This document shows, in pieces, positions 1,109 to 50,630 of a DNA stretch of 51,099 nucleotides. Each line of letters opens with the position of its first letter. Position 1 is the first letter of the stretch. The notes below the pieces were generated by a model. The model was not told where the DNA came from. It was given only the letters and a program-made list of their open reading frames with translations, and did no database searches. The position numbers were made by a program, and so were the translations under genes. Source of the stretch: a phage; the sequence record NC_129764.1, one strand, 5' to 3'.

Positions 1109-1348
1109 ATGAGCAAAATTAAGCATGACGACCTGAAAGGTGTATTAATGCAACTCAATCCAGGTCAAGCATTCCAACTTAACCCCGAGACGTTCGGATT
1201 CAATGGGAGCTATCGCACAACATTTGAGTTCATCCGGTATGTAAAGAGGGAGTTAGGAATTGATGTTATTCAAGCTGGGCTTATTAATGGCATTCAAACA
1301 TTCATATTTAAGCCAAGCGAGATTCGTTGCCTCACTCTGATGAAATAG
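1109..1348 (+). CDS. hypothetical protein (79 aa)
   Basis: ORF with RBS ggagaaataatcATG; stop TAG lies inside the dyad motif. Confidence 0.55.
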   Translation: MSKIKHDDLKGVLMQLNPGQAFQLNPETFGFNGSYRTTFEFIRYVKRELGIDVIQAGLINGIQTFIFKPSEIRCLTLMK

Positions 1349-1364
1349 CACTTTTTGTTAAAGC
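1344..1364 (+). promoter_or_regulatory. dyad motif copy AATAGCACTTTTTGTTAAAGC
   Basis: Sequence match; intergenic. Confidence 0.6.
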
Positions 1365-4226: not shown

Positions 4227-4375
4227 TGACTGCATGGGTTTTGATTATCTTAATGAGTACCGGGCCAGATCACGTATACATGGAAAGCCAACAATCATGC
4301 AACAAGGCACGGGAAGTTATCGCAGAAAATAAGCCGTTCGGATATGAAGTAAAAACTATGTGTGTTAAACGATAG
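4226..4375 (+). CDS. small protein (49 aa)
   Basis: TAATG overlap with upstream stop; hydrophobic N-terminus; stop TAG in motif; below track cutoff. Confidence 0.3.
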   Translation: MTAWVLIILMSTGPDHVYMESQQSCNKAREVIAENKPFGYEVKTMCVKR

Positions 4376-4390
4376 CACGAATTGCTAAAC
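4372..4390 (+). promoter_or_regulatory. dyad motif copy ATAGCACGAATTGCTAAAC
   Basis: Sequence match; downstream hairpin aaggcca-tttgatatag-tggcctt. Confidence 0.65.
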
Positions 4391-35774: not shown

Positions 35775-35796
35775 TAAAAAACCGCCAGAAGGCGGT
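35775..35796 (-). terminator. intrinsic terminator after primase gene
   Basis: accgccagaaggcggt stem with A6 on plus (T-run on minus). Confidence 0.65.
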
Positions 35797-36731
35797 TAGA
35801 GTAGGTCGCTTGCTGAGAATAATTTGGCTTGCATTCCTGAGCGGTATCCTCCCGGATTTGGGATGATTATCTTCAATTGTCGATCGTCTGCCATATACAA
35901 AGTCTCTTTGTCTGAAGGTTCGCACGCCACGCGCATCTCCCGATCCCCTTTGTATCTGTACGCAACCATTTCTAGATTCTCAGGAGTAAAGCAGGCCCAT
36001 ACCTCTTGCTTTGTGTGAAAGGAAATGTGCTGAGCATCAATCCAGTTCAGGCATAAGTAGATCGCCTTTTCTGTTTTACCAGTCACGGCAACCGAGCAAC
36101 TCGTGTATTTCTTCGCGTAAAATGACTCCCTTCCTTCATCATCAATAATCAAAATATTGCAAAACTCGTCATCAAGCCCATCCTCATGCACAAGTTGACA
36201 CGGGATAGTGTGAAATATGCTCTCCCCGCCATCTTCGCGGCGTTTTACACCAACGTCGAATGACTCAGTGGGTAGTGACTCAAACACGCTCAACGGCGTA
36301 TTTACACGCTTCTCTGTGCGCTCCATAACCTTCATCACCGCCTCATGTTCAGCCATCATGACATTGACACCTGACACCGGAGTCCTGCGTGCTTTCTTGT
36401 TTGCCTTAACAATGTATTCCTGAGGAACCTTTCCGAGAAATCTCCCCAGGATGTTTATACATTCACTGTACGGCATACCAGTTAATTTCATCAACCAACC
36501 GATCCCGGAGTCGTTGCCGCATGAGTTGCAGATCGCGCCTCCGTCACCGGGGGCATTAAGTTTATCCGTCCATCGAAAACGGTCTTTCCCACCGCAGTGA
36601 GGGCAAGGTTGGTGCTTCTTATTGAAAACCTCGTTCTGCAATCCGCATATGGACTGTAACGCCTCGCGCCACATCCCTTTCATGTAAGGCAAAACATCCT
36701 CTTTCTGAAACATCATAAACTCTTCGTTCAC
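35796..36731 (-). CDS. putative DNA primase with N-terminal zinc ribbon (311 aa)
   Basis: CPHCGG...CNSCG primase-type zinc ribbon pattern. Confidence 0.55.
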   Translation of the reverse strand: MNEEFMMFQKEDVLPYMKGMWREALQSICGLQNEVFNKKHQPCPHCGGKDRFRWTDKLNAPGDGGAICNSCGNDSGIGWLMKLTGMPYSECINILGRFLGKVPQEYIVKANKKARRTPVSGVNVMMAEHEAVMKVMERTEKRVNTPLSVFESLPTESFDVGVKRREDGGESIFHTIPCQLVHEDGLDDEFCNILIIDDEGRESFYAKKYTSCSVAVTGKTEKAIYLCLNWIDAQHISFHTKQEVWACFTPENLEMVAYRYKGDREMRVACEPSDKETLYMADDRQLKIIIPNPGGYRSGMQAKLFSASDLL

Positions 36732-37256: not shown

Positions 37257-37277
37257 ATAGCACTTTTTGCTAAAAAC
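37257..37277 (+). promoter_or_regulatory. dyad motif copy ATAGCACTTTTTGCTAAAAAC
   Basis: Sequence match at the divergent junction between the HTH gene and helicase. Confidence 0.6.
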
Positions 37278-37338: not shown

Positions 37339-39357
37339 GTGACAATTAACATCAAAAAGCAAATCGCATTACTTGGCGAGGACTATATAAAACGCACTCA
37401 AGAACGATTCACTGTTGGTGAGGTAGTTCCGTATCCGTACCAGGTTGTTGCTTATGCTGAGATCGCAAAACGCCTATCAAATTATGAGCATCCATTCTTT
37501 GTTAAAGCGTCAGTATCGGCGGGTAAGACCATCATTTTTGCTATGGTTGCAAAGCAGTGTCAAAAAATGGGCTTGAAAATGCTCGTGCTGGCACGCCAGG
37601 GTGAGATTGTCGATCAGGATAGTGAAGAGATCGACAATTTCGGAGTGACTAACTCTATATTCTCAGCGTCACTTGGAATCAAGTCTTGCTACTTCCCGAT
37701 CGTGGTAGGCTCTGAGGGCACTGTTGCAAATGGTTTAAATAATGAGTTGGCTGATTTTGTCCCTCACGTAATCGGGATAGATGAATGTCACCAGGTGGAT
37801 TGGGAAGACCTTGCGCAAGCCATAGACGGAAAGGAAACAATGGAACAGATGCGGGGAGAGAAAGGGAAAATTATCATGGACGGTGATACTCCTCTGATTG
37901 GTAATGATGGAAAGCCTCTTCTTGGAACTAAGCGCAGTCAGTACACGATCGTAATCATGGAAATGATGCGACGCTGTAAAGAGGTTCACGGTCACGACCT
38001 TAGAATATTTGGTATGACTGGATCTGAATTTAGGGGTGTAGTTCCTATTCTTGTTGAGAATCCAAAGGCGTTAGGCTTCTGGCGTGAGCGCGTTACTGAT
38101 ATAGACACCAACTACCTTATTGAGTTTGGCTCAGTCGTTCCGACTATATTCGGCTCGACGGACGGAGTTCACTACGATCTTGATAAATTTAAGGCATCAA
38201 GCGAGGATGGGGTACAGGACTTCACAGAGAAAGATATGAAGGCAATGGAAGATGAGATCCTTCATGATAAATCTCTTACCCAGCGAATCATGCAAATGGT
38301 TGCCAAAAAGGCTGAAGAGCGTAACGCAGTTCTGATTACATGCGCCGGGGTGCGTCACTGCAAAGAGGCGGCGGCGGCACTACCACCAGGAAGCACATAT
38401 GCAATTATTACTGGCGACACAGACACTAAAACGCGCAAGAAGATTCTTGATGATGTGAGGGCCGGGAAAATTAAATATACCTTTCAGGTCATGGCGCTAA
38501 CTACTGGAGTTAACGTTCCAAATTGGGATTTTAGTGTAATACTTCGCAAGATAGGATCTCTTACCTTGCTGATTCAGCTTTTGGGTAGGGGTATGCGACT
38601 TCTTAAATCCTGGCAGGTTGCTGAAGGAATGGTTAAGCAAGATCATCTGGTATGGGATTTTGCTGGTACGATGGACGAGTTGGGGCAGCTTTATTTCGAT
38701 CCTATACTTGAGCAGGCTCAGTTCCAGAAGCGATTTGAGAACGGAAAAGACCCGAAAACGTGTCCGAAATGTGGTTGCGTAAATAGCTTCTATGCTCGCC
38801 GATGCGTTAACGTTATCGACGGTGAGCGCTGTGATCATTTCTGGACTTCTCAGATTTGCGAGGACCAGGTTGATGAGCGCACTGGGAAAATTCTTGTTAA
38901 AGGGTGCGGTGCCGAGAATGACGTTGTGGCCAGAGTCTGTCGCTGTTGCGATGTTTCTCTTGTTGATCCTAACCTTAAGTTATCCGGTAAGGCGTACACT
39001 AAGAATGACTGGTACGAGGTCAAGAATTTTGAGGTTACGTTAACCAAAAACCAAAAAGGCGTGATATACAAATACACGCTTATTAACGATGAAGGTGATG
39101 AGTTCAAAGCGTATGAAAAATTCTTCCCTGAGTCAGACTCTAAGATCTGCGGTACTCTATGGAAAACGAAAGGCGTACTTCCTCATGTGTCAGATCCTAA
39201 AATGCGTCGCTACTTTATCGGAATGAAGAATGCTATCAAGATCGTGCAATACTCACATCATATAGCGCATCCGGTACGCGTCACCCATAGACGCAACCAG
39301 AAGAAAGAAGATATTATTTCACGCAAAGACTTCGGTATGGAGGATATCCCGGAATGA
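37339..39357 (+). CDS. SF2 DNA helicase (672 aa), GTG start
   Basis: Walker A SAGKT, DECH box GIDECHQ, C-terminal Cys clusters. Confidence 0.8.
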   Translation: MTINIKKQIALLGEDYIKRTQERFTVGEVVPYPYQVVAYAEIAKRLSNYEHPFFVKASVSAGKTIIFAMVAKQCQKMGLKMLVLARQGEIVDQDSEEIDNFGVTNSIFSASLGIKSCYFPIVVGSEGTVANGLNNELADFVPHVIGIDECHQVDWEDLAQAIDGKETMEQMRGEKGKIIMDGDTPLIGNDGKPLLGTKRSQYTIVIMEMMRRCKEVHGHDLRIFGMTGSEFRGVVPILVENPKALGFWRERVTDIDTNYLIEFGSVVPTIFGSTDGVHYDLDKFKASSEDGVQDFTEKDMKAMEDEILHDKSLTQRIMQMVAKKAEERNAVLITCAGVRHCKEAAAALPPGSTYAIITGDTDTKTRKKILDDVRAGKIKYTFQVMALTTGVNVPNWDFSVILRKIGSLTLLIQLLGRGMRLLKSWQVAEGMVKQDHLVWDFAGTMDELGQLYFDPILEQAQFQKRFENGKDPKTCPKCGCVNSFYARRCVNVIDGERCDHFWTSQICEDQVDERTGKILVKGCGAENDVVARVCRCCDVSLVDPNLKLSGKAYTKNDWYEVKNFEVTLTKNQKGVIYKYTLINDEGDEFKAYEKFFPESDSKICGTLWKTKGVLPHVSDPKMRRYFIGMKNAIKIVQYSHHIAHPVRVTHRRNQKKEDIISRKDFGMEDIPE

Positions 39358-39770
39358 TTACAGACAAAGGCGATTACTTAGAGTTTTACGAGCGAGATCC
39401 TAGCGACACGAGAAAGGAGGACGCTCATCAAGTAGATTGCGTATCCTGGTTGAAATACAATTTTCCTCAGCTTCTATTTTGGCACACAGTTAATGAAGGT
39501 GAAAAAACAATAACGTCGGCGCTAAGGGATGAACAGTCTGGATTACTCAAAGGTGTGTCAGACTTTGTTATTCTGATTGGTATAAACTCACGCTACCCGT
39601 TTGCAGCTATCGAACTAAAGAGGGTTAATAAGTCCGGCAAAGGAAAGGCATCACCAGTCAGCGATAAGCAAAGGGAGTTTCTCAAAAAGGTTCGTGATCG
39701 CGGAGGATTCTCTGCCGTCGCATACGGATTTGAGCAATTCAAGCTGGCAATATACGATTTAACGAAATAG
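39354..39770 (+). CDS. VRR-NUC domain nuclease (138 aa)
   Basis: GVSDFVIL ... AIELKR ... SDKQREFL pattern typical of VRR-NUC. Confidence 0.6.
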   Translation: MITDKGDYLEFYERDPSDTRKEDAHQVDCVSWLKYNFPQLLFWHTVNEGEKTITSALRDEQSGLLKGVSDFVILIGINSRYPFAAIELKRVNKSGKGKASPVSDKQREFLKKVRDRGGFSAVAYGFEQFKLAIYDLTK

Positions 39771-39837: not shown

Positions 39838-40551
39838 ATGAAAGACTTTAATGATATCGAAACAATCGACTTTGCAGAAACTGGGTGCTCATTCACTCGC
39901 GAAGCAATAGCATCAGGAGGTTATTATCAAGCATTGAAAACGCCAACCTGCAAAGAGATTTCAGGACGTCGATACAAGGGAACCAATACACCTGACGCAG
40001 TTCGTGATTTATGGTCAACCCCACGCGAGGTTATCGCATACCTTGAGGGTCGCTACGGAAAATATGATCTCGACGCTGCGGCAAGCGAAGAAAATAAAGT
40101 TTGCGAGAAGTTTTATTCCCAGGAAACAAACTGCTTAAAACGTTGGTGGGGTAAAAATAAGCACGTATGGTTAAATCCTCCTTACAGTCGACCTGATATA
40201 TTCGTCAAGAAAGCGATTGAGCAAATGGAGCACAACAACCAGATCGATATTCTTTTACCTGCCGATAACTCGACGGCGTGGTTTACTGAGGCTCGACAGC
40301 ACGCGGCTGAAATCATCTGGATTGAAGCTGATTTGACTGAGGATATTGACGGCAATGAATACGCACGATCCGGTCGTCTGGCTTTCATATCCGGTGAAAC
40401 TGGAAAAGCTGTAGACGGCAACAACAAAGGTTCGGTTATTTTTATTATGCGCGAACTTAAAGAAGGTGAGACGCAACAGACTCACTACATCCCAATCACA
40501 AGCATTTGTCCTTCCGTTAAAAACAAACGAGCAAAGGTGAGAAAAGTATGA
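39838..40551 (+). CDS. dam: DNA N6-adenine methyltransferase (phage Dam-like, 237 aa)
   Basis: NPPY catalytic motif (WLNPPYS). Confidence 0.75.
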   Translation: MKDFNDIETIDFAETGCSFTREAIASGGYYQALKTPTCKEISGRRYKGTNTPDAVRDLWSTPREVIAYLEGRYGKYDLDAAASEENKVCEKFYSQETNCLKRWWGKNKHVWLNPPYSRPDIFVKKAIEQMEHNNQIDILLPADNSTAWFTEARQHAAEIIWIEADLTEDIDGNEYARSGRLAFISGETGKAVDGNNKGSVIFIMRELKEGETQQTHYIPITSICPSVKNKRAKVRKV

Positions 40552-44539: not shown

Positions 44540-44560
44540 GTTTTAACAAAAAGTGCTATT
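44540..44560 (-). promoter_or_regulatory. dyad motif copy (minus strand AATAGCACTTTTTGTTAAAAC)
   Basis: Sequence match; hairpin acccgatctcgtatcgggt followed by TATATT. Confidence 0.65.
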
Positions 44561-44667: not shown

Positions 44668-45075
44668 TCAAATTCTTCTTTCGTAAGATGGAGCCTTGCG
44701 CACAATTCGACGTTCCGATCTATCAATGTTTCTACGTTCGCCAAACAAATCTTCATCACTCATCTCTCCAATGTGCATCATTTCCCACGTATACCGATTG
44801 TTGTAGCCATCAATACACATCAGCTTCATCATTACCGGGCGCTTAATCTTTCCCTTGCACCAGTAAACTCCATCCTTGCGATCTAAGTAACCCTCAGTCA
44901 CGCAACGAGCGCAAAACTCCTTAGATAGCGCGCTTGTAAATTCACGGCGAGTCATTCCAGCAGCCTTAGCAAATCGCTCACTTTCCTTGTGGGCGTATAT
45001 AAATTTCGCTATGTGCTGTCGAGTGTATTTATCGTAACCTTCGCAGAACCTGAACAGATCTAAAAGAAGAAGCAT
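44668..45075 (-). CDS. hypothetical protein (135 aa)
   Basis: ORF; weak RBS, start uncertain. Confidence 0.45.
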   Translation of the reverse strand: MLLLLDLFRFCEGYDKYTRQHIAKFIYAHKESERFAKAAGMTRREFTSALSKEFCARCVTEGYLDRKDGVYWCKGKIKRPVMMKLMCIDGYNNRYTWEMMHIGEMSDEDLFGERRNIDRSERRIVRKAPSYERRI

Positions 45076-45079
45076 GTTG

Positions 45080-46648
45080 TTAACCCATTAGTCGAGGATT
45101 GATGAAAACAATATCATCAATGCGGCAAGTGTAGTTCATCTCTTCGAGCGTGATCAGTAGGCTATCGATTCGCTCAGATACTTTCTGTTGACCGTTGAAC
45201 GGAGTAACGTTCCGGCACTTTGCAACAATACTATGAATAGGCGCGCGCCCTTTGTTCTTCTTTGCGATCTCAGTGATAACATCAATCAGCTTACGAGATT
45301 CAGCCTCATCACCTGCATACCCGGCAGCGCTGGCAGATGACAGGTAAGTCCTGGAAAGCTCATTGAAAATCATGATCGCTTCTTGCATTGTTTCAAGGTC
45401 AATCTCACGGTTGGATCGGTTCGGTGATTCGCCTTCCCAATTCTTGATCGTGTGTAGAACTGAAGCAATACGCAAAGCGTGCTTATCGAACTTGCCGAGA
45501 TGACCGCGAAGCATTGAGTGAGAGTATTTTCCCCCGGCGGCGAAATCAGGCTCCATCGCCTGGCGTGCAAGGTTTAATTCACGCATAGCATTACGGCTCA
45601 CAGAGAGAACAACGTTGTCCTCCTTCATGATGTTGTGCACGAGTCTGTAATATTTGCTAACCAGTCCGCGATCGACTTCTTTATACAGTGCATCACCATT
45701 TTCATCACAAAGAATACGAGTACCTAAAAGCGGTTCCTCTCGAACCAGGAGGAAACGCTCAGATACACCGATACCGCGCTGGCCTGCGTCCATGATACCC
45801 TTGATTGTTTCATCCTGAGCAATTACGCAGATTGAACCGACCGGGCATAGAGATAAGTTGTTATCCTGGTTGGAACGAGCGACCTCCATATGGTTTTTAT
45901 CCCACGCCTTAAGGATAAGCTCACTGTTAGATTTCTTATCTGAACCGCCATACGTAAGCCCGAGCAATGTATTGATTGCCGTTGCCTCGTCAGATATTAC
46001 GGAAAAGTGACCTTGCACTGCCGCCACTTTCGCAAGACCTTCAGGTGTAGGATCTGATACCGCGAAAACAATATCAGCCATCTTCTTGATCTTCTCTTCC
46101 AGTTTTTCTTTGTCCTCGTACAGTGCCGCCGTAGTGTTGCCTTTAGGATCATTCTTGATTTCCTTCTCAACCTGGCGTAGCTGACTGGTTAAACGGATAC
46201 GTTCCTTTTTGCGCTCTTCATTCAGTCGCTGAATCTCCGCACGCATAGGTGTAATCGCCGCTGAGTTAATCGCGGACTTACCTGTTGATGGTGGCTGGCT
46301 GATTACCATGTAAAGCGCGGTCGGCTGTTCCTCTCCGTGATATTGCACCCAAAACTTCCCTAGCATCGCGGCTGAGATGCAACCGATAAAATGAGCATAC
46401 GCGGATGAAACCGGGAACTGGACTGATTCAGCTTTTGCTTTTGCATATTCGAATACCAGGTTATCGCCACCTAACGAAATCAGAGGGAACTTATCGTTGC
46501 CGCTATTAATATCGATCGGGTCTTGCCAAAACGAAACGGAATCACCGTAGCTGTTTTCACGAATTGCGATCGCCACCGGGTTAACTCCAGTGCTATTGGC
46601 GATCTCAATAATCTGTTGGTAATTCAGTTTTGGCTTAATGTTAAACAT
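45080..46648 (-). CDS. putative P-loop NTPase (522 aa)
   Basis: ATG with RBS aaggagtttattgtgATG; Walker A-like PPSTGKS; central coiled-coil. Confidence 0.55.
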   Translation of the reverse strand: MFNIKPKLNYQQIIEIANSTGVNPVAIAIRENSYGDSVSFWQDPIDINSGNDKFPLISLGGDNLVFEYAKAKAESVQFPVSSAYAHFIGCISAAMLGKFWVQYHGEEQPTALYMVISQPPSTGKSAINSAAITPMRAEIQRLNEERKKERIRLTSQLRQVEKEIKNDPKGNTTAALYEDKEKLEEKIKKMADIVFAVSDPTPEGLAKVAAVQGHFSVISDEATAINTLLGLTYGGSDKKSNSELILKAWDKNHMEVARSNQDNNLSLCPVGSICVIAQDETIKGIMDAGQRGIGVSERFLLVREEPLLGTRILCDENGDALYKEVDRGLVSKYYRLVHNIMKEDNVVLSVSRNAMRELNLARQAMEPDFAAGGKYSHSMLRGHLGKFDKHALRIASVLHTIKNWEGESPNRSNREIDLETMQEAIMIFNELSRTYLSSASAAGYAGDEAESRKLIDVITEIAKKNKGRAPIHSIVAKCRNVTPFNGQQKVSERIDSLLITLEEMNYTCRIDDIVFINPRLMG

Positions 46649-46702
46649 CACAATAAACTCCTTAGTTGACGGTGTGAATGATACACCGCCAATGTTACAC
46701 GC

Positions 46703-46722
46703 GTTTTGCAAAAAGTGCTATT
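46703..46722 (-). promoter_or_regulatory. dyad motif variant (minus strand AATAGCACTTTTTGCAAAAC)
   Basis: Sequence match about 55 nt upstream of the P-loop gene. Confidence 0.55.
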
Positions 46723-46724
46723 GG

Positions 46725-48838: not shown

Positions 48839-48857
48839 TTTAGCAAAAAGTGCTATT
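48839..48857 (-). promoter_or_regulatory. dyad motif copy (minus strand AATAGCACTTTTTGCTAAA)
   Basis: Sequence match; hairpin gggatggctggtatagtcatccc. Confidence 0.65.
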
Positions 48858-49922: not shown

Positions 49923-49943
49923 GTTTTAACAAAAAGTGCTATT
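49923..49943 (-). promoter_or_regulatory. dyad motif copy (minus strand AATAGCACTTTTTGTTAAAAC)
   Basis: Sequence match; downstream hairpin and leader catcgaaacgag. Confidence 0.65.
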
Positions 49944-50630
49944 TGCGATTGCTTTGAAAAATCCACGCGGCGACAGCGATCGTATCAACTTCGTTTTGGC
50001 AGACTTGCCGCCCAGCTTGTTTTGCTGCGCAGAGTACCCGTCAGGCAGGCTTACTGGCTTTCTCTCCGGCATGACAAAATCGTCCGAGGTCCAAAGACAC
50101 GTCTTTTTCGGGTAAGCATCGCGCGGCGCAATATACATCGGGAACCAGGGATGCGCGTCATTCTCAGGAAGATAGCCGCCATACTCCCAGGGATTGAATG
50201 AGTGATCTGGTTTTCTCCAGGCAGATGACAGGACGCTAACCGGATTCTCAATGATGTAAGTCACGCCCAGGGCGTCGCCAATATTCGCAGCAATCCGTGC
50301 GGTGGCAACGGCCTTCTCCTGGAATAACGGATCACGTTCACGCTTGCTGGCAAAGTGGCGAGCACCACTAACAGCCAGGTCAGTACACGGAGGGAAGGCC
50401 ATAATAAAATCCGGCTTGCCATACACGCCAGCGATAGCATCACGCTCAAACGCTGCGTCAATGAAGACGTTCACATACTCAATGTTCGGATGCTCAACCC
50501 TGGCGTTATACTTTGCGTAATCTCCGTGATCGGCTCCGTCAAAGTTGAAGCACATCACCTTATGACCTTGCTTTGCCAGTTCATGACCAGCAAGGCCGGA
50601 ACCGTCGAATAGTGACCAAATTAATTTCAT
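49926..50630 (-). CDS. minimal C5-cytosine methyltransferase-like protein (234 aa)
   Basis: Motif I-like LFDGSG, motif IV PC (FPPCTDLAVSG), motif VI ENV-like (IENPVSVL); no obvious target recognition domain. Confidence 0.6.
   Translation of the reverse strand: MKLIWSLFDGSGLAGHELAKQGHKVMCFNFDGADHGDYAKYNARVEHPNIEYVNVFIDAAFERDAIAGVYGKPDFIMAFPPCTDLAVSGARHFASKRERDPLFQEKAVATARIAANIGDALGVTYIIENPVSVLSSAWRKPDHSFNPWEYGGYLPENDAHPWFPMYIAPRDAYPKKTCLWTSDDFVMPERKPVSLPDGYSAQQNKLGGKSAKTKLIRSLSPRGFFKAIANSTFC

What the first reader, a model, noticed from the sequence alone, without database searches (positions are those of the whole stretch)
45080..46648. Large P-loop protein in the minus-strand early block
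A 522-aa protein with Walker A-like PPSTGKS and a central charged coiled-coil segment is encoded among small early genes, far from the helicase and primase module. It may be a second replication or recombination ATPase, or a host-takeover or anti-defence ATPase. It has its own dyad-motif cassette.
Basis: inference. Interest (0 to 1): 0.35.

Follow-up and report, generated by a model that had tools for sequence, protein, structure and literature searches.

The report
T1-type phage MCM-like DUF3987 helicase
The flagged gene is the well-conserved, already annotated DUF3987 "DNA helicase" of T1-like phages: a ring-helicase-type ATPase that resembles the archaeal and eukaryotic MCM motor and is most likely the phage's own replication-fork helicase, so the finding is real but ordinary.

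Summary
Window 45080..46648 (-) encodes a 522-aa protein with QPPSTGKS (residues 118-125), followed by a highly charged helical-hairpin insert. The gene has its own upstream repeat-plus-dyad cassette.

The window is a Tunavirus, 97.7% identical in DNA to Shigella phage Shfl1. The gene is the ortholog of T1p09/Shfl1p74, which RefSeq already calls "DNA helicase". It matches Pfam DUF3987 (E 3e-42) and PHROG 2373 (E 8e-234).

Relatives are fused to DnaG zinc-ribbon, DnaB N-terminal or Prim-Pol domains. In more distant phages the gene sits directly beside the primase, SF2 helicase, exonuclease and SSB genes. Across 12 Tunavirus orthologs, 238 of 255 variable sites are third-codon positions.

Published work already predicted DUF3987 proteins to be phage replicative helicases (2016) and showed 5'->3' helicase activity for one member (2025).

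Best reading: this is the phage's replicative helicase, working with the separately encoded primase and host polymerase. There is no support for an anti-defence or host-takeover role. Already known; low interest.

The parts
45080..46648 (-). CDS of the 522-aa DUF3987 protein (stop codon TAA at 45080..45082); ortholog of T1p09 / Shfl1p74
   Evidence: Pfam PF13148 E 3e-42, residues 78-432. PHROG 2373 'DNA helicase' E 8e-234.
46355..46648 (-). N-terminal all-helical domain (residues 1-98); variable in the family and replaced by DnaB_N, zinc-ribbon or Prim-Pol modules in relatives. A role as primase or partner adaptor is inferred.
   Evidence: Secondary structure of the model. Low conservation and occupancy of residues 1-60. 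Fusions in relatives.
45671..46354 (-). AAA+ ATPase core (residues 99-326)
46274..46297 (-). Walker A / P-loop QPPSTGKS (residues 118-125)
   Evidence: K124 is 100% conserved, Q118 and P119 96%.
46082..46273 (-). Charged helical-hairpin ('coiled-coil') insert in the helix after the P-loop (residues 126-189)
   Evidence: Helices 122-165 and 173-189. 44% charged residues. Present family-wide.
45986..46009 (-). Walker B strand HFSVISDE (residues 214-221). E221 is invariant; D220 is replaced by A in some relatives.
45848..45889 (-). Beta-hairpin just before strand 4 (residues 254-267) carrying invariant R258. Candidate pre-sensor-1 hairpin / DNA pore loop (inferred).
   Evidence: DSSP strands 254-256 and 265-267. 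R258 100% conserved.
45749..45769 (-). GVSERFL (residues 294-300). R298 is invariant and is the candidate arginine finger, resembling the MCM 'SRF' motif (inferred from established MCM knowledge).
   Evidence: G294 and R298 100% conserved, E297 93%.
45326..45670 (-). Helical lid region (residues 327-441) with SMLRGHLGKFD. K386 is invariant and is the candidate sensor-2 residue (inferred).
45083..45316 (-). C-terminal winged-helix domain (residues 445-522)
46658..46721 (-). Upstream cassette: repeat box ATAGCACTTTTTGCAAA (46721..46705), -10-like TATCAT (46683..46678), dyad TTGGCGGTGT/ACACCGTCAA (46692..46666), ribosome-binding site AAGGAG (46663..46658)
   Evidence: Conserved upstream of the gene in the 13 related IMG/VR loci examined (L009-L022, which include one 80%-identity relative, L021).
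44668..45075 (-). 135-aa gene starting 4 nt after the helicase stop (PHROG 2794, unknown function). Conserved in the same position in Tlsvirus LL5 at 54% identity. Probably co-transcribed; candidate accessory factor (inferred).
   Evidence: The next repeat box lies only at 44559..44543.
35796..36731 (-). Stand-alone zinc-ribbon primase, the presumed partner of the helicase (functional link inferred)
   Evidence: Pfam Zn_Ribbon_Prim E 6e-15. Matches only positions 6-321 of the 667-position PHROG 510 primase profile. Adjacent to the DUF3987 gene in relatives.

Best explanation
The gene encodes the DUF3987-family helicase of a T1-like phage. The protein has four parts:
- a variable N-terminal helical domain;
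- an MCM-like AAA+ ATPase core, in which a charged helical hairpin is inserted after the P-loop;
- a helical lid;
- a C-terminal winged helix.

Most likely it assembles into a ring, as the family's nearest structural relatives (MCM) do. It would bind ATP at subunit interfaces (K124 and E221 in cis, R298 in trans) and translocate on single-stranded DNA to unwind the phage replication fork. The separately encoded zinc-ribbon primase would prime, and host DNA polymerase III would synthesise DNA.

Shown here: family membership, fold, conservation of catalytic residues, strong purifying selection, fusion and synteny with primases in relatives, and absence of any other annotated ring helicase in the closest annotated relative.

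Inferred: ring assembly, role at the fork, partnership with the primase, possible self-loading through the winged helix, and polarity. Polarity was 5'->3' in the one characterised family member.
For: - Family: Pfam DUF3987, 145.6 bits against a cut-off of 27, covering 2-355 of 364 profile positions. PHROG 2373 'DNA helicase' E 8e-234.
- Catalytic residues: K124, E221, R258, R298 and K386 are 100% conserved in 137 members down to about 27% identity.
- Fusions in relatives: DnaG zinc ribbon + DUF3987, DnaB N-terminal domain + DUF3987, Prim-Pol + DUF3987.
- Synteny: the gene is adjacent to the primase, SF2 helicase, exonuclease, ERF and SSB genes in L003. The order is HTH, DUF3987, small gene, primase, SF2 helicase in L005. 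In Pseudoalteromonas phage TW1 the order is DUF3987, primase, helicase, exonuclease VIII, SSB.
- No competitor: Shfl1 has no annotated DNA polymerase, DnaB-type helicase or initiator. The window's own primase is a stand-alone N-terminal half of a primase-helicase-length profile.
- Selection: 12 Tunavirus orthologs show 255 variable nucleotides, 238 of them at third positions, and only 11 variable residues. Against T1 there are 113 synonymous and 2 non-synonymous codon changes.
- Literature: DUF3987 proteins were predicted to be SF6, MCM-related replicative helicases with a C-terminal winged helix (PMC4889955). The PriCT-DUF3987 protein AgaPH unwinds DNA 5'->3', needs its Walker A and B motifs, and binds its primase-polymerase (PMC11724360).
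Against: - No experiment exists on this protein or any Drexlerviridae ortholog. I found no essentiality or DNA-synthesis phenotype for it.
- In this genome the gene is 8.3 kb from the primase, in a block of small genes. Co-regulation with the replication module is therefore not evident.
- From memory only, not verified here: classical work (Bourque & Christensen, Virology 1980) reported that T1 DNA synthesis needs host 'elongation' dna genes. If dnaB is among them, a fork-helicase role would be weakened.
- D220 of the Walker B motif is not universally conserved.
- MCM moves 3'->5', whereas the one characterised DUF3987 helicase moves 5'->3'. The structural analogy therefore cannot be carried over in detail.
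Confidence: 0.7

Rival explanations
1. Initiator or loader rather than fork helicase. The protein recognises or melts a phage origin, or a D-loop, through its winged helix and ATPase. It then hands the DNA to host DnaB, or only opens DNA for the primase, and host DnaB drives the fork.
For: The C-terminal winged helix resembles those of ORC, Cdc6 and MCM. No other initiator is recognisable in the genome. There is an unverified recollection that T1 needs host elongation genes.
Against: In relatives the ATPase substitutes for the DnaB C-terminal motor (DnaB_N + DUF3987) and is fused to primases. The characterised member is a processive-type 5'->3' helicase. No conserved cis element lies inside the gene: there is no invariant run of 30 nt or more among 12 orthologs.
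Confidence: 0.13
2. Recombination or repair motor. It would be a ComM/RuvB-like ring ATPase that drives branch migration during the recombination-dependent replication and concatemer formation typical of T1-like phages.
Confidence: 0.1
3. Host-takeover or anti-defence ATPase.
For: Only its position among small, mostly unannotated genes on the minus strand.
Against: There is no meaningful match to defence-related families: LmuB at 13.7 bits with no stretch passing. The protein is invariant across Tunavirus phages, with 11 of 522 residues variable. That differs from the expectation, from general knowledge of phage counter-defence genes rather than any test here, that such genes evolve quickly. 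The family is spread over thousands of clusters and consistently tied to primases.
Confidence: 0.03

Closest known systems
Drexlerviridae DUF3987 'DNA helicase' orthologs (T1p09, Shfl1p74, LL5 gp75, AAS23 gp49)
   Same: Same gene. The protein is 99-100% identical in 56 phage records and 53-59% identical across other Drexlerviridae. It has the same length and the same position next to the lysis cassette, with the same small downstream gene. AAS23 gp49 was already called a putative DUF3987 helicase (PMC8004638).
   Different: Nothing of substance. T1 and some relatives carry an HNH endonuclease gene inserted just upstream, which this window lacks.
AgaPH, the PriCT-DUF3987 helicase of a Seonamhaeicola mobile element (PMC11724360)
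   Same: Same Pfam family, with a Walker A/B-dependent ATPase, a C-terminal small domain, and partnership with a primase.
   Different: AgaPH has an N-terminal PriCT domain and pairs with an AEP primase-polymerase encoded next to it. The phage protein has an unrelated helical N-terminus and would pair with a zinc-ribbon primase (Toprim/DnaG-type inferred; only the zinc ribbon was detected by Pfam) encoded 8 kb away. I did not have the AgaPH sequence, so direct sequence identity was not measured.
MCM replicative helicases of archaea and eukaryotes (SF6, AAA+)
   Different: No sequence-level match to Pfam MCM or to any PDB chain, even with a profile. The N-terminus is all-helical, where MCM has an OB-fold/zinc domain. 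No helix-2 insert is evident. There is an extra helical hairpin after the P-loop. The family's one measured polarity is opposite to MCM.
Cch (DUF927) self-loading helicase of staphylococcal SCCmec, and the SaPI5 primase-helicase
   Different: They belong to different Pfam families and match far more weakly than MCM.

Membership tests
DUF3987 (Pfam PF13148) helicase family | Significant full-length match to the family profile | tested here: met
   145.6 bits against a gathering score of 27; residues 78-432 cover 2-355 of 364 profile positions. 2408 related 50%-identity clusters at E<=1e-3.
DUF3987 (Pfam PF13148) helicase family | Conserved Walker A lysine and Walker B glutamate | tested here: met
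   K124 and E221 are 100% conserved in 137 members.
DUF3987 (Pfam PF13148) helicase family | C-terminal winged-helix domain | tested here: met
DUF3987 (Pfam PF13148) helicase family | Fusion with, or adjacency to, a primase gene | tested here: inconclusive
   Not adjacent in this window: the primase is 8.3 kb away. Adjacent or fused in relatives.
DUF3987 (Pfam PF13148) helicase family | ATP-dependent DNA unwinding | not testable with these tools
   Shown only for AgaPH (PMC11724360).
MCM family proper (Pfam PF00493) | Sequence match to the MCM profile or to solved MCM chains | tested here: not met
   Pfam returned only DUF3987 at E<=1. There was no PDB sequence hit with the single sequence or with a profile.
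MCM family proper (Pfam PF00493) | N-terminal OB-fold / zinc-binding DNA-binding domain | tested here: not met
   Residues 1-98 are predicted to be all helical.
MCM-like AAA+ fold (SF6 helicases) | AAA+ core and lid closest in structure to MCM | tested here: met
MCM-like AAA+ fold (SF6 helicases) | Pre-sensor-1 beta-hairpin and helix-2 insert | tested here: inconclusive
   A hairpin at 254-267 precedes strand 270-277 and carries invariant R258. No insert is evident in helix 202-212.
MCM-like AAA+ fold (SF6 helicases) | Hexameric ring assembly | not testable with these tools
   No multimer prediction was available. AgaPH elutes as an oligomer.
Anti-phage defence / counter-defence ATPases (PADLOC families) | Match to a defence-system protein profile | tested here: not met
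   Only LmuB at E 0.0032 and 13.7 bits, with no stretch passing.

The most novel reading that the evidence does not exclude
The T1-type DUF3987 protein may be a self-loading initiator-helicase. It would find the still unmapped T1 origin through its winged helix, together with the conserved 135-aa downstream protein. It would then use its family-specific charged helical arm to dock the phage primase and/or the host Pol III clamp-loader. That would let the phage bypass DnaA, DnaB and DnaC with only two or three proteins of its own.
Probability: 0.15. Interest if true: 0.4.

Novelty: already known. Interest (0 to 1): 0.12.

Why it matters
It matters little as a discovery. RefSeq already labels the gene "DNA helicase" in the same phage species. 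The family was predicted to be a phage replicative helicase in 2016, and one member was shown to unwind DNA in 2025.

Its modest value is for annotation and for T1 biology. Recent descriptions of T1-like phages (for example the TLS re-annotation) still name only the SF2 enzyme as "the helicase". The evidence here says the DUF3987 protein is the likely fork helicase and that the SF2/VRR-NUC pair is more likely a recombination or repair module.

No DUF3987 structure matched in the sequence searches of the PDB. The highly conserved T1 protein would therefore be a convenient target for the first one.

Tried and rejected
- NCBIfam scan: no family.
- PDB sequence searches with the single protein and with a 33-sequence profile: only chance-level hits.
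- PADLOC: nothing meaningful.
- Embedded cis element, such as an origin, inside the gene. The inverted repeat at 46563..46609 with GATC sites prompted a test of synonymous-site variation in 12 Tunavirus orthologs. There was no invariant run of 30 nt or more and no clear trough. GATC density in the gene is unremarkable. Rejected.
- Homology between the small genes flanking the DUF3987 gene here and in the 35%-identity relatives: none found. Only the 135-aa downstream gene is conserved, and only within Drexlerviridae. It has no Pfam or PDB match.
- Literature searches for T1 host-gene dependence, T1 amber-mutant phenotypes, escape mutants in this gene and genome-wide essentiality screens covering Drexlerviridae: nothing usable. 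The supplement of the 2016 replication survey is not held.
- The 543-aa TTG start. Rejected because the extension overlaps the upstream cassette and no homolog carries it.

Full report
**Identity of the window and the gene**

The 1632-bp stretch 45080..46711 matches 63 phage records. The best match is Shigella phage Shfl1 at 97.7% DNA identity, and T1 itself matches at 92.7%. The window is therefore a Tunavirus (Drexlerviridae).

The ORF list gives a 543-aa frame from a TTG at 46711. The real start is the ATG at 46648:
- AAGGAG lies 9 nt upstream.
- All homologs start M-F/Y at this point.
- An identical 522-aa protein is in public data.

The gene is the ortholog of T1p09 / Shfl1p74. GenBank calls it hypothetical; RefSeq calls it "DNA helicase".

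**Check of the observation**

- QPPSTGKS is residues 118-125 (46274..46297).
- Residues 126-189 are 44% charged, against 25% overall. They are predicted to form a long helix plus a return helix.
- The primase (35796..36731, Zn_Ribbon_Prim) and the SF2 helicase (37339..39357, ResIII + Helicase_C) lie about 8 kb away across the holin-endolysin-spanin genes.
- Upstream there is a box ATAGCACTTTTTGCAAA (46721..46705) followed by a 10-bp dyad (46692..46666).

**What the protein is**

- *Sequence family.* Pfam gives a single, full-length match to DUF3987 (E 3e-42). PHROGs gives family 2373 "DNA helicase" (E 8e-234), with a separate match of the last 85 residues to PHROG 7327. NCBIfam, PADLOC and PDB sequence searches give nothing meaningful.
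- *Family size.* An exhaustive HMMER search finds 2408 clusters at E<=1e-3. tblastn finds the gene in 925 phage records, mostly Klebsiella, Escherichia, Salmonella and Shigella siphoviruses, many already labelled helicase.

The protein is therefore an MCM-like AAA+ ATPase with a C-terminal winged helix. It is not an MCM proper: there is no sequence match, the N-terminus is all-helical rather than an OB/zinc domain, and a helical hairpin is inserted after the P-loop.

**Is it a working enzyme?**

In an alignment of 137 family members down to about 27% identity:
- K124 (Walker A), E221 (Walker B), R258 (in a beta-hairpin just before strand 4), R298 (in SERF, like the MCM SRF arginine finger) and K386 (in the lid) are 100% conserved.
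- Q118, P119, T201, E203, Q278 and E304 are at least 96% conserved.

Assigning R298, R258 and K386 to the arginine finger, pore loop and sensor 2 is an inference from AAA+ and MCM knowledge, not a superposition.

Selection on the protein is very strong. Among 12 distinct Tunavirus orthologs (92-98% DNA identity) there are 255 variable nucleotides. Of these, 238 are at third codon positions, and only 11 of 522 residues vary. Against T1 there are 113 synonymous and 2 non-synonymous codon changes.

**What it does: context evidence**

- *Fusions.* Longer relatives carry a DnaG-type CHC2 zinc ribbon (P0160), the DnaB N-terminal domain in place of this protein's N-terminus (P0185), or a Prim-Pol domain (P0231) in front of the DUF3987 module.
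- *Synteny in L003.* In a 48-kb phage contig with a 35%-identical homolog, the gene sits next to a Zn_Ribbon_Prim primase, the ResIII SF2 helicase, a 138-aa gene in the position that VRR-NUC occupies in this window (no Pfam hit on record), a DUF3799 exonuclease, ERF and SSB.
- *Synteny in L005.* The order is small HTH gene, DUF3987, 71-aa gene, zinc-ribbon primase, SF2 helicase.
- *Synteny in TW1.* In Pseudoalteromonas phage TW1 the order is DUF3987, primase, helicase, exonuclease VIII, SSB.
- *Drexlerviridae.* In T1 and in Tlsvirus LL5 the gene has moved to the other side of the lysis cassette, together with a small downstream gene.
- *Other replication genes.* Shfl1, the closest annotated relative, has no annotated DNA polymerase, no DnaB-type helicase and no recognisable initiator. 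Its primase covers only the first half of a 667-position primase profile. Its other helicase is an SF2 enzyme paired with VRR-NUC, a combination I read as a recombination or branch-processing module.

The DUF3987 protein is therefore the only candidate ring helicase for the fork.

**What is already published**

- Kazlauskas et al. 2016 classed phage DUF3987 proteins as divergent SF6 helicases related to MCM. They noted the C-terminal winged helix and the association with AEP or DnaG primases, and proposed that these are replicative helicases (PMC4889955).
- A 2018 survey listed DUF3987 among the ATPase modules that replace MCM, RepA and DnaB on primases (PMC5862659).
- In 2025 the PriCT-DUF3987 protein AgaPH was shown to be an oligomeric, ATP/dATP-dependent 5'->3' helicase that needs its Walker motifs and binds its primase-polymerase (PMC11724360).
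- The AAS23 paper already calls the Drexlerviridae ortholog a putative DUF3987 helicase (PMC8004638).
- The 2024 TLS re-annotation still discusses only the primase and the SF2 helicase.

**Mechanism and rivals**

| Reading | Confidence |
|---|---|
| Replicative ring helicase working with the stand-alone primase and host polymerase | 0.7 |
| Initiator/loader that hands over to host DnaB | 0.13 |
| ComM/RuvB-like recombination motor | 0.10 |
| Anti-defence or host-takeover ATPase | 0.03 |

The main uncertainty is experimental. I found no phenotype for this gene. I recall, but could not verify, an old report that T1 needs host elongation genes. If dnaB is one of them, the loader reading gains.

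An origin inside the gene was tested and not supported.

**The cassette**

The box upstream of the gene is one of 24 copies of ATAGCAC-NN-TTTG-N-TAA in the window, against 0.47 expected. Every copy I checked against the ORF lists or the Shfl1 annotation lies on the strand of the local genes.

In 13 of the 22 strict copies, a TAnnnT hexamer follows at exactly 22 nt. Four more copies have CATAAT, CATTAT or TATAAC at that position. The hexamer is often preceded by TGn and usually lies in the loop or arm of a 6-10-bp dyad.

The 21-nt repeat has been reported for TLS, T1, Rtp and Rogue1 with unresolved function (PMC11447400). The cassette upstream of the DUF3987 gene is kept in all 13 related IMG/VR loci examined, even where an HNH gene is inserted upstream. 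One relative (L021) shows a compensatory arm change.

**Verdict**

The object is a known, already annotated phage helicase family member. Interest is low.

Noticed in passing
window, 24 sites, e.g. 1345-1361(+), 4372-4388(+), 37257-37273(+), 44543-44559(-), 46705-46721(-), 48840-48856(-): The intergenic repeat ATAGCAC-NN-TTTG-N-TAA occurs 24 times against 0.47 expected, and every copy checked lies on the strand of the local genes. A -10-like hexamer (TATAGT, TATGAT or TATCAT, often with TGn) follows at a fixed 22-nt spacer and lies inside a 6-10-bp dyad. If the hexamer is a real -10, the partly palindromic box (TAGCA-N5-TGCTA) centres near -42, which is class-II activator geometry, and TTGnTA sits 5 nt too far upstream to be a sigma-70 -35. 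The repeat itself is published for TLS, T1, Rtp and Rogue1 with unknown function. I did not find the fixed spacing to a -10 within a dyad described.
   Followed up: partly
window 46649-46724 compared with L012, L016 (T1), L017, L020 and L008:3069-3596: T1, Eco_BIFF and some other Tunavirus genomes carry an HNH endonuclease gene inserted directly upstream of the DUF3987 gene; this window and Shfl1 do not. The repeat/dyad cassette is retained in both cases.
   Followed up: partly
window 44668-45075 (-): A 135-aa gene of unknown function (PHROG 2794) starts 4 nt after the helicase stop. It keeps this position in Tlsvirus LL5 at 54% identity, similar to the helicase's own divergence, so it is a candidate accessory factor. 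It has no Pfam or PDB match and no counterpart in the 35%-identity relatives.
   Followed up: partly
L005:5822-6004 and L006:5837-6001: In distant relatives a 54-60-aa helix-turn-helix-like protein (…SERT[VI][RT]R[YW]…) ends at, or overlaps, the start of the DUF3987 gene, which suggests translational coupling with a small DNA-binding protein. No equivalent lies upstream of the gene in this window.
   Followed up: no
window 35796-36731 (-): The phage primase matches only positions 6-321 of the 667-position PHROG 510 primase profile. It is a stand-alone primase lacking the C-terminal half that the longer profile contains.
   Followed up: partly
window 37339-39770 (+): An SF2 helicase (ResIII/Helicase_C, 672 aa) is followed, with a 4-nt overlap, by a VRR-NUC nuclease (138 aa). 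The pair recurs next to the DUF3987 gene in distant relatives and looks like a recombination or branch-processing module rather than a fork helicase.
   Followed up: no
window 46563-46609: A 13-nt inverted repeat (ATTGCGATCGCCA / TGGCGATCTCAAT, 21 nt apart) with GATC sites lies near the 5' end of the helicase gene. Synonymous sites there vary as elsewhere among 12 orthologs, so there is no sign of a conserved DNA element.
   Followed up: yes
L020:1674-3238; MT360681 (Shigella phage 2019SD1): One IMG/VR ortholog is 1 nt short and therefore frameshifted. The 2019SD1 record (flagged as an unverified assembly) has the gene broken into five pieces. These are probably assembly errors rather than pseudogenes.
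   Followed up: no
window 39838-40551 (+) and 49926-50630 (-): The phage carries two DNA methyltransferase genes: the T1 Dam-like one in the replication block, and a second at the far end of the minus-strand block, which is annotated in Shfl1 as similar to a Phi1 gene.
   Followed up: no
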